Positions 30,275-32,710 of a stretch of 64,000 bases of DNA are shown piece by piece. The position numbers and the translations under genes were made by a program. Source of the DNA: an uncultured Candidatus Saccharibacteria bacterium (lineage in GTDB: Bacteria; Patescibacteriota; Saccharimonadia; Saccharimonadales; CAYLGV01). Within the stretch, counting starts at the first letter, position 1. Every line of letters starts with the position of its first letter. The notes beneath the pieces were generated by a model. That model was given only the letters and a program-made list of their open reading frames with translations. It was not told where the DNA came from and made no database searches. The stretch lies in the NCBI GenBank assembly GCA_964394925.1, contig CAYMZG010000002.1, positions 20,947-84,946 on the forward strand. Direction: 5' to 3'.

Positions 30275-32710
30275 ATGAAGAAGCTCCTGCTGATATCGAC
30301 ACCCATCTTACTTGCCCTCCTCGTTGGTGTTTGCTTTATAACTCCACCTAAAGCCAATGCATTGTCTGGAAGTGAGTTCACCGCCGGAAGGATTATTGAC
30401 GACAATATATTCTTTAGCCCAAACTCTATGAACGTTGTCGATATCCAGAACTTCTTAAACGCTAAAGTCCCAGTTTGTGACACATGGGGAACACAACCAT
30501 ATGCTGGTACAACTCGGGCTGCCTATGCTGCTAGTAAGGGCTATTCGACACCTTTCACTTGTCTTAAAGACTACCGTCAAGTTACCGTTAGCAAAGCAGC
30601 TGATGGCCTCTGTAACGGTTATGGGGCAGTCAATCAGTCGGCAGCCGACATTATTTATGGTGTCGCTCAAAGCTGTGGAGTAAGTCCAAAAGTACTAATC
30701 GTGCTACTACAAAAAGAGCAGTCGCTGGTATCTGACGATTGGCCTTGGAGTATTCAATACCGTAGTGCCACCGGCTATGGCTGTCCGGATACGGCAGCCT
30801 GCGACTCGACTTACTACGGCTTCTTCAATCAAGTATATGCTGCTGCCCGCGTTTATAAATACTACGCTGCACACCCAGCTGATTTTAACTACCGCGCTGG
30901 ACGCGACAACTTTGTCTTATACAATCCAAACTCTGCTTGTGGTGGTTCTATGGTGTTCCTACAAAACCAAGCAACCGCTGGACTATACATATACACTCCA
31001 TATCAACCAAACCCAGCCGCCTTAAGTAACCTCTATGGTACTGGTGATGGTTGTAGCGCCTATGGAAACCGAAACTTCTGGCGCATGTACCGTGACTGGT
31101 TTGGTAATACCACCGGCCCAGGCTATGAATTTGTTGATGCAGTAAATCCACCAGCCCAGATACTGCCAAACGACGTTACCTCGGTGCGTATTCGTATCCG
31201 TAATCTCTCTGGTACCACCTGGTATGGCGACGGTAATGTGCCATCTGGTCAACACCCACTCAGACTCGCTACGCTTGGCTATGCCAACGATCCACACGGG
31301 AACCCATCAGACCCAAACTGGCTTGGCACCTCCAACCAAGTTCGTATGCAAGAAAGTAGTGTGGCTGACGGTGGTATTGCCACCTTCGACTTCACCTATA
31401 AAGGGCCGATGCAACAAGTCGACAATTATCTTTCTCGATTCACACCAGTACTTGATGGCTCAGCCATTCTGCCGTACGTTGGCATGGTATTTGGCGTAAG
31501 CACTCCAACACCGAACTACGGCTTTGCTGTTACAACTACGACCGGCATTACTAAAGATATGCCAACCAACTACACCCGCCCCGTAACCTACACCATTAAG
31601 AACACCGGTAATGTCGTGTGGTGGGGTGAGTCGGGTCACCCAGTTGGCGCCGCACCAATTCGAATGCTTACCATTCAGCCGTTTTACCATGCAAGCGTCT
31701 TCTATGATGCTAGTACTTGGTTAGCTAATAATCAGATCAAGCAGTCTACCAATAATCGTATTAATCCTGGCCAAGACGCAATCTTCAACTTCAGCCTTAA
31801 GACCCCTGCTACAAGTAGTATATATAACGAAAACTTTGGCCTCGTACTGGATGGTGCCATCCTCTATCCAACTGGTTCGCCAATTAATCTGAACGTAAAC
31901 GTAGCCGACTATTCGTACTCCGTTGTTTCAACAGACATCCCACAAAGCTTAGCCCAAGGCCAGAAGTACCGCGCCAAGATTGTACTTAAGAATACTGGTG
32001 TTGCAACCTGGTATGCTGATGGCCACACCCCTGCAAGTACCTACCCTATTCGAATTATGTCAGCCGGCTACCAGCCATATGGCTTGAGTGATGCCCGAGA
32101 TAGTTCTTGGATCACGCCTGGTACGCAAGTCAAGATGGCGACGAACCAGGTAGCGCCCGGCGATAACGGTGAGTTTAGCTTCGACATTATCGCGCCCTAT
32201 GGCAATGGTGGCGATGTTCTTGGCGACTTCCGCGTTGTCCTAGATGGCCTGCTCATTATGCAAGGCGCTATTCAAGCACGTACAAACGTTCCTGCTCGAA
32301 CCGGCTCCTACATTAACCAGCCAGCTGGTATTTACCCTGTTCTCACTAGCATTGCACCAGGGCAAATAGCCAACGGCAAACTTGTTGTGCGCAACAATAC
32401 CAACTTCGTGTGGTACAGCGATGATAACCGACCATCGATCTTCCGTGGTGGTGCTATGCGCATGGTCATGACCAATCCGTACTACCGAACATCTGCCTTC
32501 AGCAACAGCGCTGACGCTGCCTGGCTTGGTACATCAAACCAGATTAAAATGAGTACTGCAATTGTTAACCCAGGTGAAGATGCCGAATTCCCCTTCACCT
32601 GGAAAGCACCAGCACAATCAGGAACATACACCGATCGCTTCAGTCTTGTACTTGATGGCTATCAGCTCATGCCTGACATCGGCATGCAATTTGTAACCAC
32701 GGTTCAATAG
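30275..32710 (+). CDS. Secreted 811-aa protein: N-terminal domain (possibly a cell-wall hydrolase) plus four tandem repeats of about 115 aa
   Basis: Signal peptide 'MKKLLLISTPILLALLVGVCFITPPKANA'; four repeats each containing 'T/VW(Y/W)xD' ... 'P(I/L)R(L/I/M)' ... 'NPG(Q/E)DA.F.F' ... 'LVLDG'. Confidence 0.5.
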   Translation: MKKLLLISTPILLALLVGVCFITPPKANALSGSEFTAGRIIDDNIFFSPNSMNVVDIQNFLNAKVPVCDTWGTQPYAGTTRAAYAASKGYSTPFTCLKDYRQVTVSKAADGLCNGYGAVNQSAADIIYGVAQSCGVSPKVLIVLLQKEQSLVSDDWPWSIQYRSATGYGCPDTAACDSTYYGFFNQVYAAARVYKYYAAHPADFNYRAGRDNFVLYNPNSACGGSMVFLQNQATAGLYIYTPYQPNPAALSNLYGTGDGCSAYGNRNFWRMYRDWFGNTTGPGYEFVDAVNPPAQILPNDVTSVRIRIRNLSGTTWYGDGNVPSGQHPLRLATLGYANDPHGNPSDPNWLGTSNQVRMQESSVADGGIATFDFTYKGPMQQVDNYLSRFTPVLDGSAILPYVGMVFGVSTPTPNYGFAVTTTTGITKDMPTNYTRPVTYTIKNTGNVVWWGESGHPVGAAPIRMLTIQPFYHASVFYDASTWLANNQIKQSTNNRINPGQDAIFNFSLKTPATSSIYNENFGLVLDGAILYPTGSPINLNVNVADYSYSVVSTDIPQSLAQGQKYRAKIVLKNTGVATWYADGHTPASTYPIRIMSAGYQPYGLSDARDSSWITPGTQVKMATNQVAPGDNGEFSFDIIAPYGNGGDVLGDFRVVLDGLLIMQGAIQARTNVPARTGSYINQPAGIYPVLTSIAPGQIANGKLVVRNNTNFVWYSDDNRPSIFRGGAMRMVMTNPYYRTSAFSNSADAAWLGTSNQIKMSTAIVNPGEDAEFPFTWKAPAQSGTYTDRFSLVLDGYQLMPDIGMQFVTTVQ

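What the first reader, a model, noticed from the sequence alone, without database searches (positions are those of the whole stretch)
30275..32710. Secreted 811-aa protein with four tandem ~115-aa repeats and an N-terminal domain that may be a cell-wall hydrolase
Seen: a signal peptide and an N-terminal domain of about 270 aa, Cys-rich (at least 8 Cys), with 'GVAQSCGVSPKVLIVLLQKEQSL' reminiscent of glucosaminidase/muramidase helices. Four repeats follow. Each contains W-Y/W-x-D at its start, P-I/L-R in the middle, NPG-Q/E-DA-x-F-x-F, and ends in LVLDG. Examples are 'NPGQDAIFNFSLKTPATSSIYNENFGLVLDG' and 'NPGEDAEFPFTWKAPAQSGTYTDRFSLVLDG'. Inference: the repeats are probably carbohydrate-binding or Ig-like modules, targeting the polymer made by the surrounding locus or a host wall. 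The family is not recognised.
Basis: partly seen in the sequence, partly recalled or inferred. Interest (0 to 1): 0.55.

Follow-up and report, generated by a model that had tools for sequence, protein, structure and literature searches.

The report
Secreted lysozyme-like enzyme with co-varying partner
This gene from a Saccharibacteria-like genome encodes a secreted protein whose unclassified N-terminal domain is probably a lysozyme-type cell-wall glycosidase. It is followed by four NBR1-type "FW" repeats and paired with a small membrane-anchored protein that changes whenever the enzyme domain changes.

Summary
The 811-aa ORF at 30275-32710 (+) is real. It has a Sec signal peptide, a Cys-rich N-terminal domain of about 250 aa, and four significant tandem repeats.

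**Repeats.** They are not unrecognised. They match Pfam PF16158 (N_BRCA1_IG, the NBR1 "FW" Ig-like domain).

**N-terminal head.**
- It has no Pfam, NCBIfam, PHROG or PDB-sequence match, yet defines a large family of about 3,800 50%-identity clusters.
- The family occurs in Saccharibacteria/Patescibacteria and, at 50-67% identity, in Actinomycetota, their host phylum.
- A confident AlphaFold model gives only weak fold hits, but the top 12 PDB hits are all GH73/GH23 peptidoglycan glycosidases.
- One Glu (E148), at the end of a GH73/SLT-like helix, is the only acidic residue invariant across the family.

**New finding.**
- A roughly 190-aa membrane-anchored Ig-like protein (29698-30270) lies directly upstream in 55 of 57 Saccharibacteria loci.
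- In orthologous loci the head and this partner are replaced together (25-30% identity), while the FW tail and neighbouring genes stay at 50-70%.

**Best reading.** A modular wall hydrolase with a cognate membrane partner, set in a Wzm/Wzt glycopolymer operon. An effector-immunity reading is not excluded.

The parts
29698..30270 (+). Partner gene 'p190' (190 aa). It has an N-terminal TM anchor (aa 15-33), a low-complexity linker and a C-terminal Ig-like beta-sandwich domain (aa ~94-190, nt 29977-30267) carrying a conserved Cys pair (C125, C151).
   Evidence: The ORF is and the single TM segment. It has no Pfam hit. AlphaFold gives pLDDT 96.2 with eight strands. Foldseek finds only generic Ig-like hits. 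It lies directly upstream on the same strand in 55/57 Saccharibacteria and 12/23 Actinomycetota loci. It co-varies with the head type.
30275..32710 (+). Main ORF of 811 aa: signal peptide, unclassified head domain, then four FW repeats.
30275..30361 (+). Sec-type signal peptide (aa 1-29), with cleavage predicted after A-N-A.
   Evidence: This is read from the sequence. The hydrophobic segment is at aa 4-22. A29 and the following LSGS are conserved in the family.
30362..31120 (+). Head domain (aa 30-282). It is Cys-rich with a mixed alpha/beta fold and is probably a lysozyme-superfamily glycosidase. It belongs to no Pfam or NCBIfam family.
   Evidence: The AlphaFold model has pLDDT 92.5 and pTM 0.86. 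Foldseek against PDB and BFVD returns lists dominated by GH73, GH23 and SLT enzymes, but all at E>=0.3. The family is large.
30659..30727 (+). Putative catalytic helix GVAQSCGVSPKVLIVLLQKEQSL (aa 129-151). The E148 codon is at 30716-30718.
   Evidence: K147 and E148 are invariant across all head types, and E148 is the only invariant acidic residue. E148 sits at the C-terminal end of helix 138-149. hhalign places it on the catalytic Glu of FlgJ/GH73 and of Slt70.
31124..31510 (+). FW (N_BRCA1_IG) repeat 1, aa 284-412.
31523..31909 (+). FW repeat 2, aa 417-545.
31910..32314 (+). FW repeat 3, aa 546-680.
32315..32707 (+). FW repeat 4, aa 681-811. This repeat gives the best Pfam stretch (aa 693-793).
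26314..29606 (+). Upstream co-directional genes. One is a 609-aa polytopic membrane protein with about 12 TM segments and no Pfam hit. The other is a DUF2142 membrane protein. Their stop and start overlap (ATGA).
32733..37529 (+). Downstream co-directional genes: a methyltransferase, a GT2, a double-GT2 and another GT2. The gap after the 811-aa gene is 22 bp, with no terminator-like site in it.
37540..40563 (-). Methyltransferase, Wzt (ABC ATPase with a Wzt_C domain) and Wzm (ABC-2 permease). These indicate ABC-transporter-dependent glycopolymer export.
   Evidence: Wzt/Wzm homologs lie within 8 kb of the family gene in 13/23 Actinomycetota loci and about 15-19/57 Saccharibacteria loci.

Best explanation
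The gene encodes a Sec-secreted, modular cell-envelope glycan hydrolase.

- **Head (aa 30-282).** It is a highly elaborated, disulfide-stabilised member of the lysozyme superfamily, closest to GH73 glucosaminidases and GH23 lytic transglycosylases. It most likely cleaves the glycan strands of peptidoglycan, with E148 as the general acid.
- **Tail.** Four FW-type Ig-like repeats act as the retention or targeting module. This position is filled in relatives by LGFP, DUF5648, SH3, FG-GAP or CBM modules.
- **Partner.** The enzyme is made together with a small membrane-anchored Ig-like protein (p190) that binds the head specifically. The partner tethers or restrains the enzyme at the producer's own membrane surface, so activity is confined in space.
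- **Setting.** The pair sits inside a Wzm/Wzt-type wall-glycopolymer operon. This is consistent with a role in remodelling the producer's own wall as the polymer is inserted.

Shown here: the architecture, the family distribution, the invariant residues, the linkage and the co-variation. Inferred: the fold class, the substrate, the direct head-partner binding and the physiological role.
For: Fold and active site:
- The head model is confident: pLDDT 92.5.
- The 12 best PDB Foldseek hits are all GH73 or GH23 peptidoglycan glycosidases (SagB, LytB, AtlE, Acp, g-type lysozymes), and about 22 of 42 listed hits are lysozyme-superfamily enzymes.
- An independent viral library gives SLT, LT_GEWL, glucosaminidase and tail-lysin hits.
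- hhalign puts GVSPKVLIVLLQKEQS on GVPHHLILAQAALESG (GH73) and on the Slt70 catalytic helix. P=0.005 against SLT and 0.04 against GH73, versus 0.18-0.37 for reversed or unrelated controls.
- E148 is the only acidic residue invariant across head types that share 25% identity. It lies at the C-terminal end of a helix.

Modular architecture:
- The same head is fused in relatives to LGFP x6-16, FG-GAP x11, DUF5648, SH3_3, CBM_4_9 or FW tails. This is the classic wall-hydrolase design.
- DUF5648 is treated as a putative wall-binding domain of a GH25 endolysin in bioRxiv 10.64898/2026.04.26.720912.

Conservation:
- The head is much more conserved across phyla (mean 56%) than the tails or the neighbouring genes. 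That fits a universal substrate.

Partner:
- It lies directly upstream in 55/57 Saccharibacteria loci and 12/23 Actinomycetota loci, with a 4-nt gap or an ATGA overlap.
- In five orthologous loci the tails are 55-70% identical for every pair, while heads and partners fall into the same three types.

Operon context:
- The gene is co-directional with glycopolymer genes.
Against: - No single structural hit is significant. The best E-values are 0.65 (PDB) and 0.32 (viral), with TM-scores of 0.19-0.34.
- The hhalign probabilities are only 1-7%.
- No Pfam, NCBIfam, PHROG or PDB-sequence match covers the head, even with a diverse profile.
- There is no second conserved acidic residue.
- The substrate is untested, and placement inside a glycopolymer locus could equally point to the polymer as substrate.
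- The partner's fold is a generic Ig-like sandwich with no functional signature, and head-partner binding was not modelled.
- The rapid joint replacement of head and partner is unusual for a housekeeping autolysin.
Confidence: 0.5

Rival explanations
1. Effector-immunity pair. The head is an antagonistic lytic enzyme released to breach the wall of another cell. For Saccharibacteria that cell is the actinobacterial host; for Actinomycetota it is a competitor. The membrane-anchored partner is the cognate immunity protein that blocks the head at the producer's surface. The head and partner diversify together in an arms race.
For: - Head and partner are replaced as one cassette in otherwise orthologous loci. 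There are at least three head types, each with its own partner, while tails and neighbours stay at 50-70% identity.
- The two genes are tightly coupled, with a 4-nt gap or an ATGA overlap.
- The partner is anchored on the outer face of the membrane, by a TM helix or as a lipoprotein.
- The family is shared between the epibiont phylum and the host phylum.
- Lytic transglycosylases of Patescibacteria have been proposed to compromise host envelopes (PMC11665869).
- From my own knowledge: beta-sandwich immunity proteins that block lysozyme-like effectors exist, for example Tsi3 with Tse3.
Against: - Eleven of 23 Actinomycetota loci carry the head gene with no small partner upstream. A self-toxic effector would not tolerate that.
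- No delivery or toxin-marker domain is present; there is only a Sec signal.
- The gene sits inside a biosynthetic operon for the producer's own wall polymer.
- The partner's fold search shows no MliC, PliC or Ivy-type inhibitor among the listed hits.
- The Actinomycetota and Saccharibacteria sequences form two separate clades, so there is no sign of recent exchange.
Confidence: 0.22
2. Polymer-processing glycanase. The head cleaves the wall glycopolymer made by the surrounding Wzm/Wzt locus rather than peptidoglycan. It would trim or release chains, as the hydrolases and lyases encoded in many exopolysaccharide loci do. The membrane partner would couple it to the export machinery.
For: - The gene lies inside a co-directional block of GT2, methyltransferase, DUF2142 and GT-C-like genes, next to Wzm/Wzt and near rhamnose-synthesis genes.
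- Wzm/Wzt lie within 8 kb in 13/23 Actinomycetota loci and roughly a third of Saccharibacteria loci. That is far more than a random position would give.
- From my own knowledge: the lysozyme-like fold also occurs in non-peptidoglycan glycanases. GH124 appears among the fold hits.
Against: - In orthologous loci with the same glycosyltransferase set (58-60% identity), the head differs by 75%. The head therefore does not track the polymer.
- Conversely, very similar heads (>55%) occur in loci with quite different or no detectable glycan genes.
- The best fold hits are peptidoglycan enzymes.
Confidence: 0.18
3. Non-catalytic surface adhesin. The head is a glycan- or protein-binding domain that has lost catalysis, and the whole protein mediates attachment, for example of the epibiont to its host.
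For: - FW domains bind proteins in eukaryotes (PMC9233695).
- No significant match to any enzyme family was found.
- Some relatives carry 3-4 tandem heads, which is more typical of binding modules.
Against: - A single Glu, with its flanking Lys and a set of Tyr, Thr and Gln residues, is invariant at 25% overall identity. That pattern is typical of an active site.
- There are no Big_2, FN3 or other adhesin-type Pfam hits.
- The head is also present in free-living Actinomycetota.
Confidence: 0.07

Closest known systems
GH73 N-acetylglucosaminidase autolysins of Gram-positive bacteria (S. aureus SagB, AtlE and Atl-GL; S. pneumoniae LytB; C. perfringens Acp; FlgJ)
   Same: - They are the top structural neighbours.
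- The catalytic-helix motif G-V-x-x-x-[LV]-[IL]-[LI]-x5-E is in the same register.
- They are secreted and combine a catalytic head with wall-binding repeats.
- SagB works in complex with a membrane protein, SpdC (PDB 6u0o is among the hits).
   Different: - There is no Pfam Glucosaminidase match, and hhalign gives P of only 0.04-0.08.
- The head is about 100 aa larger, with four putative disulfides and a long insertion after the Glu.
- The GH73 'YATD' motif is absent. In its place the family has an invariant T-x2-L-Y-x-Y-T-P.
- The partner here is a single-pass or lipid-anchored Ig-like protein, not a polytopic CAAX-type protein.
GH23 family: soluble and membrane lytic transglycosylases (Slt70, MltC, phiKZ gp144) and goose-type lysozymes
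   Same: - A single invariant catalytic-type Glu sits at a helix end, followed by Ser one residue later (E-Q-S against E-S).
- This is the best profile-profile score obtained (P=0.005).
- These enzymes recur among the fold hits in two libraries.
   Different: - There is no SLT Pfam match.
- The GLMQ and AYNxG motifs are not recognisably present.
- The hhalign probability is only 7%, against 65% for the GH73-versus-SLT control.
NBR1 / ILRUN FW domain (Pfam PF16158 N_BRCA1_IG; PDB 4OLE) and bacterial XRE-FW proteins
   Same: - The repeats score 47.9 bits against a cut-off of 28.
- The repeat profile's best PDB sequence hit is human NBR1 FW, aligned at KNTGNVxW and at G..F...APA..GTY.
   Different: - Here the domain is extracellular and in four tandem copies. 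Each copy carries an insert of about 30-40 aa, and only two Trp are invariant rather than four.
- Known bacterial FW proteins are mostly cytoplasmic XRE regulators with a single C-terminal FW (PMC3357945).
- The eukaryotic domain binds protein cargo (PMC9233695). The ligand here is unknown.
Lysozyme-like effector plus cognate immunity or inhibitor pairs (T6SS Tse3-Tsi3 and Tge-Tgi; lipoprotein lysozyme inhibitors MliC and LprI). This comparison is recalled from my own knowledge.
   Same: - A small protein facing the outer side of the membrane is encoded next to a lysozyme-like enzyme.
- The two diversify together.
   Different: - There is no secretion-system marker.
- The partner is missing in about half of the actinobacterial loci.
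- The partner's fold does not match known inhibitor folds in the listed hits.
- The partner gene lies upstream, and the variable enzyme domain is N-terminal.

Membership tests
Pfam PF16158 N_BRCA1_IG (FW domain) | Profile HMM score above the curated gathering threshold | tested here: met
   E=2.3e-12 and 47.9 bits against a cut-off of 28, with three matched stretches. Precomputed PF16158 hits are present on about 40 relatives.
Pfam PF16158 N_BRCA1_IG (FW domain) | Four conserved tryptophans, the signature that gives the eukaryotic FW domain its name | tested here: not met
   Only two Trp are invariant across the four repeats: W33 and W70 of alignment A7.
Pfam PF16158 N_BRCA1_IG (FW domain) | Ig-like beta-sandwich fold similar to NBR1 (PDB 4OLE) | tested here: inconclusive
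   The repeat profile's top PDB sequence hit is 4OLE, but at E=0.57.
Lysozyme superfamily glycosidases (GH73 / GH23-SLT) | Sequence-profile match to Glucosaminidase, SLT or related Pfam/NCBIfam models | tested here: not met
   No hit was found for the query or for any of 62 family members at E<=1. There was no PDB sequence hit either.
Lysozyme superfamily glycosidases (GH73 / GH23-SLT) | Lysozyme-like fold | tested here: inconclusive
Lysozyme superfamily glycosidases (GH73 / GH23-SLT) | Invariant catalytic Glu at the C-terminal end of a helix, preceded by a hydrophobic G-V/I-x-P-x-L-L/I helix | tested here: met
   E148 is invariant across all head types. It lies at the end of helix 138-149. 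hhalign aligns it to the catalytic Glu of FlgJ and of Slt70.
Lysozyme superfamily glycosidases (GH73 / GH23-SLT) | Significant profile-profile similarity | tested here: inconclusive
   hhalign gives P=0.005 (SLT) and 0.04 (GH73), with probabilities of 7% and 1%. Negative controls give P of 0.18-0.37. The positive control, GH73 against SLT, gives P=6e-5.
Lysozyme superfamily glycosidases (GH73 / GH23-SLT) | Cleavage of peptidoglycan glycan strands | not testable with these tools
   This needs an enzyme assay.
Polymorphic effector-immunity pairs | An adjacent small gene co-varies with the variable enzyme domain | tested here: met
   There are three head types, each with its own partner type, in orthologous loci.
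Polymorphic effector-immunity pairs | The immunity gene accompanies every effector gene | tested here: not met
   The partner is absent upstream in 11/23 Actinomycetota loci. It is present in 55/57 Saccharibacteria loci.
Polymorphic effector-immunity pairs | A delivery or trafficking domain (LXG, PAAR, Rhs, CDI and similar) | tested here: not met
   Only PF16158 was found, and the only export signal is a Sec signal peptide.
Known lysozyme-inhibitor families (MliC/PliC, Ivy, PliI, PliG), considered for p190 | Fold or profile match | tested here: not met
   There is no Pfam hit. The top 50 Foldseek hits are CsgH/CsgC, nanobodies, CBM21, FN3 and GH2 Ig domains, with the best E-value at 2.7e-3.
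   There are no Big or FN3 hits. The head's structural neighbours are peptidoglycan glycosidases.

The most novel reading that the evidence does not exclude
The head and p190 form a previously unrecognised, widespread, Sec-dependent polymorphic 'lysin plus cognate membrane immunity' cassette. Saccharibacteria would use it to open the peptidoglycan of their actinobacterial hosts at the attachment site. Actinomycetota would use it against neighbours. Head and partner diversify in an arms race, and the cassette has passed at some time between host and epibiont phyla. The FW, LGFP or DUF5648 tails would set target-surface specificity.
Probability: 0.2. Interest if true: 0.8.

Novelty: new variant of a known kind. 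Interest (0 to 1): 0.6.

Why it matters
How Saccharibacteria and other Patescibacteria breach or remodel cell walls, their own or their hosts', is an open question, and few of their surface proteins have any assignment.

- **Size of the family.** It has about 3,800 clusters at 50% identity and at least 595 loci among species-representative genomes, yet no Pfam or NCBIfam model and no solved relative.
- **Experimental access.** It is shared with cultured Actinomycetota such as Leifsonia, Plantibacter and Agromyces, where it could be studied genetically.
- **A concrete hypothesis.** The joint replacement of the head and the membrane partner gives a testable protein-protein interaction. It offers a handle on either autolysin control or inter-cell antagonism.
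- **A new setting for FW domains.** The protein places the otherwise eukaryote-centred FW (NBR1) domain in a bacterial extracellular, tandem-repeat context.

Tried and rejected
Searches on the head that found nothing useful:
- Pfam, NCBIfam and PHROG scans of the head, and of 62 family members, gave nothing covering the head.
- PDB sequence searches with the single sequence, the family profile and a diverse 12-sequence profile returned only chance PP2A hits.
- tblastn of the head against 50,697 phage records gave no match, so it is not an obvious phage lysin.
- hhalign against home-made GH73 and SLT profiles (E. coli FlgJ, Slt70 and EmtA plus 160 IMG/VR relatives) was weak. It is consistent with homology but not proof.

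Partner (p190):
- I tested whether it is a lysozyme-inhibitor-like protein. The fold is only a generic Ig-like sandwich.
A 10-sequence alignment was used instead.

Other ideas tested:
- 'The FW tail tracks the glycan locus': there is no association between an FW tail and window-like GT2/Wzm/Wzt neighbours (Fisher p 0.24-1).
- Recent host-epibiont transfer: an NJ tree puts all 23 Actinomycetota in one clade, separate from Saccharibacteria. Only an old split or an old transfer is compatible.
- The exact protein could not be located by the look-up of encoding contigs. It is a singleton 90% cluster on an unnamed 213-kb NCBI contig.
- The literature searches found no description of this head family.
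Full report
**1. The observation**

The ORF at 30275-32710 (+) is present and encodes 811 aa.
- It starts with a typical Sec signal peptide, with one hydrophobic segment at aa 4-22 followed by A-N-A.
- All eight mature Cys lie in the first 260 residues, and the repeats have none.

Four tandem repeats follow.
- Each ends in (L/P/V)VLDG, at aa 395, 527, 658 and 795.
- They are 25-37% identical pairwise. BLASTP E-values run from 1e-8 to 8e-23, and Smith-Waterman z-scores against shuffles are 12-31.
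- The period is about 131-137 aa rather than 115, and some of the quoted sub-motifs are literal only in repeats 2 and 4.
- The self-BLAST showed no internal hits. I attribute this to BLAST dropping hits that lie wholly inside the full self-match; this was not tested.

**2. The repeats**

- Pfam recognises the repeats as PF16158 (N_BRCA1_IG), the Ig-like 'FW' domain of NBR1. The match is E=2.3e-12 and 47.9 bits against a cut-off of 28, in three stretches.
- A profile built from the four repeats has human NBR1 FW (PDB 4OLE) as its best PDB sequence hit. E=0.57 is not significant on its own.
- Only two Trp are invariant.
- Bacterial FW domains are known mainly from cytoplasmic XRE-FW regulators (PMC3357945; PMC9233695). 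An extracellular four-copy array is an unusual setting for this domain.
- About 20 proteins of about 810 aa share the full architecture. Others carry two or three repeats.

**3. The head domain**

No library recognises aa 1-285. I tried Pfam, NCBIfam, PHROGs and PDB sequences, with the single sequence, with 62 members scanned individually, and with family profiles.

The family is nevertheless large.
- There are 1,790 hits in the word-indexed search.
- There are 3,766 representatives at 50% identity with E<=1e-3, of which 2,197 reach E<=1e-30.
- A scan of one genome per species found at least 595 loci.
- The named sources are almost all 'hypothetical protein' from Candidatus Saccharibacteria or Patescibacteria.
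- Among the best 80 genome loci, 23 are from Actinomycetota: Leifsonia, Plantibacter, Agromyces, Isoptericola, Geodermatophilus, Mycetocola, Pseudoclavibacter and Rhodoglobus. Their identity to the query is 50-58%.
- An NJ tree separates the Actinomycetota as one clade from the Saccharibacteria/Patescibacteria clade. Mean cross-phylum identity is 56% and the maximum is 67%.

**4. Fold of the head**

AlphaFold2 with a 62-sequence alignment gives a confident model: pLDDT 92.5 and pTM 0.86.

Foldseek finds no significant match. The best E-values are 0.65 (PDB) and 0.32 (viral library), with TM-scores of 0.19-0.34. The hit lists are nonetheless strikingly one-sided.
- PDB ranks 1-12 are all GH73 glucosaminidases (SagB, LytB, AtlE, Acp) or goose-type lysozymes.
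- Lower ranks include phiKZ gp144, MltC, a phage lytic transglycosylase, human lysozyme and GH124.
- The viral library returns SLT, LT_GEWL, glucosaminidase and tail-lysin proteins.

As an orthogonal test I built GH73 and SLT profiles from E. coli FlgJ, Slt70 and EmtA plus 160 IMG/VR relatives and ran hhalign.

| Comparison | P-value | hhalign probability |
|---|---|---|
| Head vs SLT | 0.005 | 7% |
| Head vs GH73 | 0.04 | 1% |
| Head vs reversed or unrelated profiles (controls) | 0.18-0.37 | below 1% |
| GH73 vs SLT (positive control) | 6e-5 | 65% |

The scores are weak, but both alignments are anchored on the same place. GVSPKVLIVLLQKEQS aligns to GVPHHLILAQAALESG and to the Slt70 catalytic helix, which puts E148 on the catalytic Glu.

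**5. Conserved residues**

A divergent branch of the family, 25-30% identical, was found attached to the same FW tail. Across all branches the invariant residues are K147, E148, A165, C170-P171, C176, Q186, T234, L237-Y238, Y240-T241-P242, G264, F268 and W275-F276-G277.
- E148 is the only invariant acidic residue. D69, D154 and D172 are conserved only within the canonical branch.
- E148 sits at the C-terminal end of helix 138-149.
- That position for the general-acid Glu is characteristic of lysozyme-superfamily enzymes. This last point is established knowledge, not a test made here.

**6. Modularity**

Relatives fuse the same head to different tails:
- DUF5648 (26 of 62 members)
- LGFP repeats (x6-16 in Agromyces, Isoptericola and Geodermatophilus)
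- FG-GAP/VCBS repeats (x11)
- SH3_3, CBM_4_9, FIMAH or FW

Some proteins carry three or four heads in tandem. A conserved head with interchangeable putative wall-binding tails is the standard design of wall hydrolases. DUF5648 is treated as a candidate wall-binding domain of a GH25 endolysin in bioRxiv 10.64898/2026.04.26.720912.

**7.

Directly upstream, with a 4-nt gap, lies a 190-aa ORF at 29698-30270. It has one TM helix, a low-complexity linker and a C-terminal domain of about 95 aa.

A homolog, or a similarly built small TM-anchored ORF, sits in the same position in these loci:
- 55 of 57 Saccharibacteria/Patescibacteria loci. One of the two exceptions lies at a contig end.
- 12 of 23 Actinomycetota loci, where it carries a lipobox Cys instead of a TM helix.

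The C-domain folds confidently (pLDDT 96.2) as an eight-stranded Ig-like sandwich. Its Foldseek neighbours are generic: CsgH/CsgC, nanobodies, CBM21 and FN3, with the best E-value at 2.7e-3. None is a known lysozyme inhibitor.

**8. Head-partner co-variation**

The locus of P0266 (L244) is syntenic with the window. Identities between the window and L244 are as follows.

| Gene or region | Identity to window |
|---|---|
| Methyltransferase (317 aa) | 60% |
| Three GT2 genes | 58-60% |
| Methyltransferase (342 aa) | 50% |
| Wzt | 62% |
| Wzm | 70% |
| FW tail | 59% |
| Head | 25% |
| Partner | about 29% over 65 aa (E=0.008) |

Two further loci, L245 and L246, replicate the pattern.
- Tails are 55-70% identical for every pair among the five loci compared.
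- Heads fall into three types: window/L001 at 82%, L244/L245 at 40%, and L246 alone. All cross-type pairs are 24-33% identical.
- Partners fall into exactly the same three types. Within-type matches have E=1e-48 and 1e-38, while cross-type matches range from E=5e-5 to 0.7.
- The junction GPGYEFVDA(V/I)NPP, just before repeat 1, is conserved in most of the aligned head sequences. That is consistent with cassette exchange at the domain boundary.

This is the strongest evidence obtained. It indicates that the partner and the head are a functional unit, most simply because they bind each other. The binding itself is an inference.

**9. Genomic setting**

The gene lies in a co-directional block from 26314 to 37529:
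- a 12-TM protein with no Pfam match
- DUF2142
- the partner
- the 811-aa gene
- a methyltransferase
- GT2, double-GT2 and GT2

The intergenic gaps are tiny, and there is no terminator-like site after the 811-aa gene.

Next to this block are a methyltransferase, Wzt and Wzm on the other strand. Further GT2 and GT4 genes, a Wzy_C-type protein, RmlC/RmlD, UDP-glucose dehydrogenase, GtrA and a flavoenzyme also lie in the window.

Wzm/Wzt homologs lie within 8 kb of the family gene in 13/23 Actinomycetota loci and about a third of Saccharibacteria loci. That is far above random expectation for genomes of 1-4 Mb, but it is not universal.

Having an FW tail is not associated with window-like glycosyltransferases (Fisher p 0.24-1). 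I therefore do not claim that the FW tail binds the locus polymer.

**10. Interpretation**

The most economical reading is a secreted, modular peptidoglycan glycosidase of the lysozyme superfamily.
- Which bond it cuts is unknown: muramidase, glucosaminidase or lytic transglycosylase.
- A swappable tail retains it on the wall.
- A cognate membrane-anchored Ig-like partner holds or controls it.
- It is encoded with wall-polymer genes.

I favour peptidoglycan as substrate for two reasons. The head is highly conserved across phyla while tails and neighbours vary. In addition, the head changes type while the glycosyltransferase set stays orthologous.

The effector-immunity reading explains the joint diversification best. 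It is weakened by the 11 partner-less actinobacterial loci, by the lack of any delivery domain, and by the biosynthetic-operon setting.

A polymer-specific glycanase and a non-catalytic adhesin are less likely, for the reasons listed under the rival explanations.

**11. Novelty**

The kind of protein is known: a lysozyme-like wall hydrolase with binding repeats. The following are undescribed as far as the libraries and literature searched here show:
- the head family
- its near-obligate pairing with a co-varying membrane partner in Saccharibacteria
- its sharing with the host phylum
- the extracellular FW array

Noticed in passing
window 26314-28143 (+): A 609-aa protein with about 12 predicted TM segments and a C-terminal soluble domain. 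It has no Pfam hit, and its stop overlaps the start of the DUF2142 gene (ATGA). It looks like an uncharacterised GT-C-like membrane glycosyltransferase of the glycopolymer pathway. No homolog was found by tblastn in any of the 80 related loci.
   Followed up: partly
P0121, P0122, P0123: Proteins of 824-1116 aa carry three or four tandem copies of the head domain (39-43% identical to the query) instead of a single head plus a tail. This is unusual for a catalytic domain.
   Followed up: no
L026, L055, L032 (tree): Loci from MAGs labelled Limnocylindrales, Verrucomicrobiia and Woesebacteria nest inside the Saccharibacteria clade of the head tree. This suggests mis-binned contigs or lateral transfer.
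   Followed up: no
L246 3464-4039 (partner of head type C): The partner of the third head type has no Cys pair and no detectable similarity to the other two partner types, yet it keeps the same build: TM helix, linker and a beta-rich domain of about 100 aa. The partner may have been replaced by a non-homologous protein rather than having diverged.
   Followed up: partly
window 44965-47814 (+): A 949-aa protein with a split GDSL/SGNH hydrolase domain (Pfam Lipase_GDSL_2, aa 342-617) lies at the edge of the glycan locus. It could be a glycan O-acetyl esterase or transferase-like protein.
   Followed up: no
window 24270-25706 (-) and 25741-26256 (-): A flavin-dependent oxidoreductase (Amino_oxidase/NAD_binding_8) and a GtrA-family membrane protein are transcribed divergently from the operon. 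They may indicate extracytoplasmic sugar modification in the locus.
   Followed up: no
L244 versus window: The order of the methyltransferase gene differs between the orthologous loci. It lies upstream of the partner in L244 and L246 but downstream of the 811-aa gene in the window. DUF2142 is only 36% identical, against 50-70% for the other neighbours, so the exchanged segment may extend beyond the head-partner cassette.
   Followed up: partly
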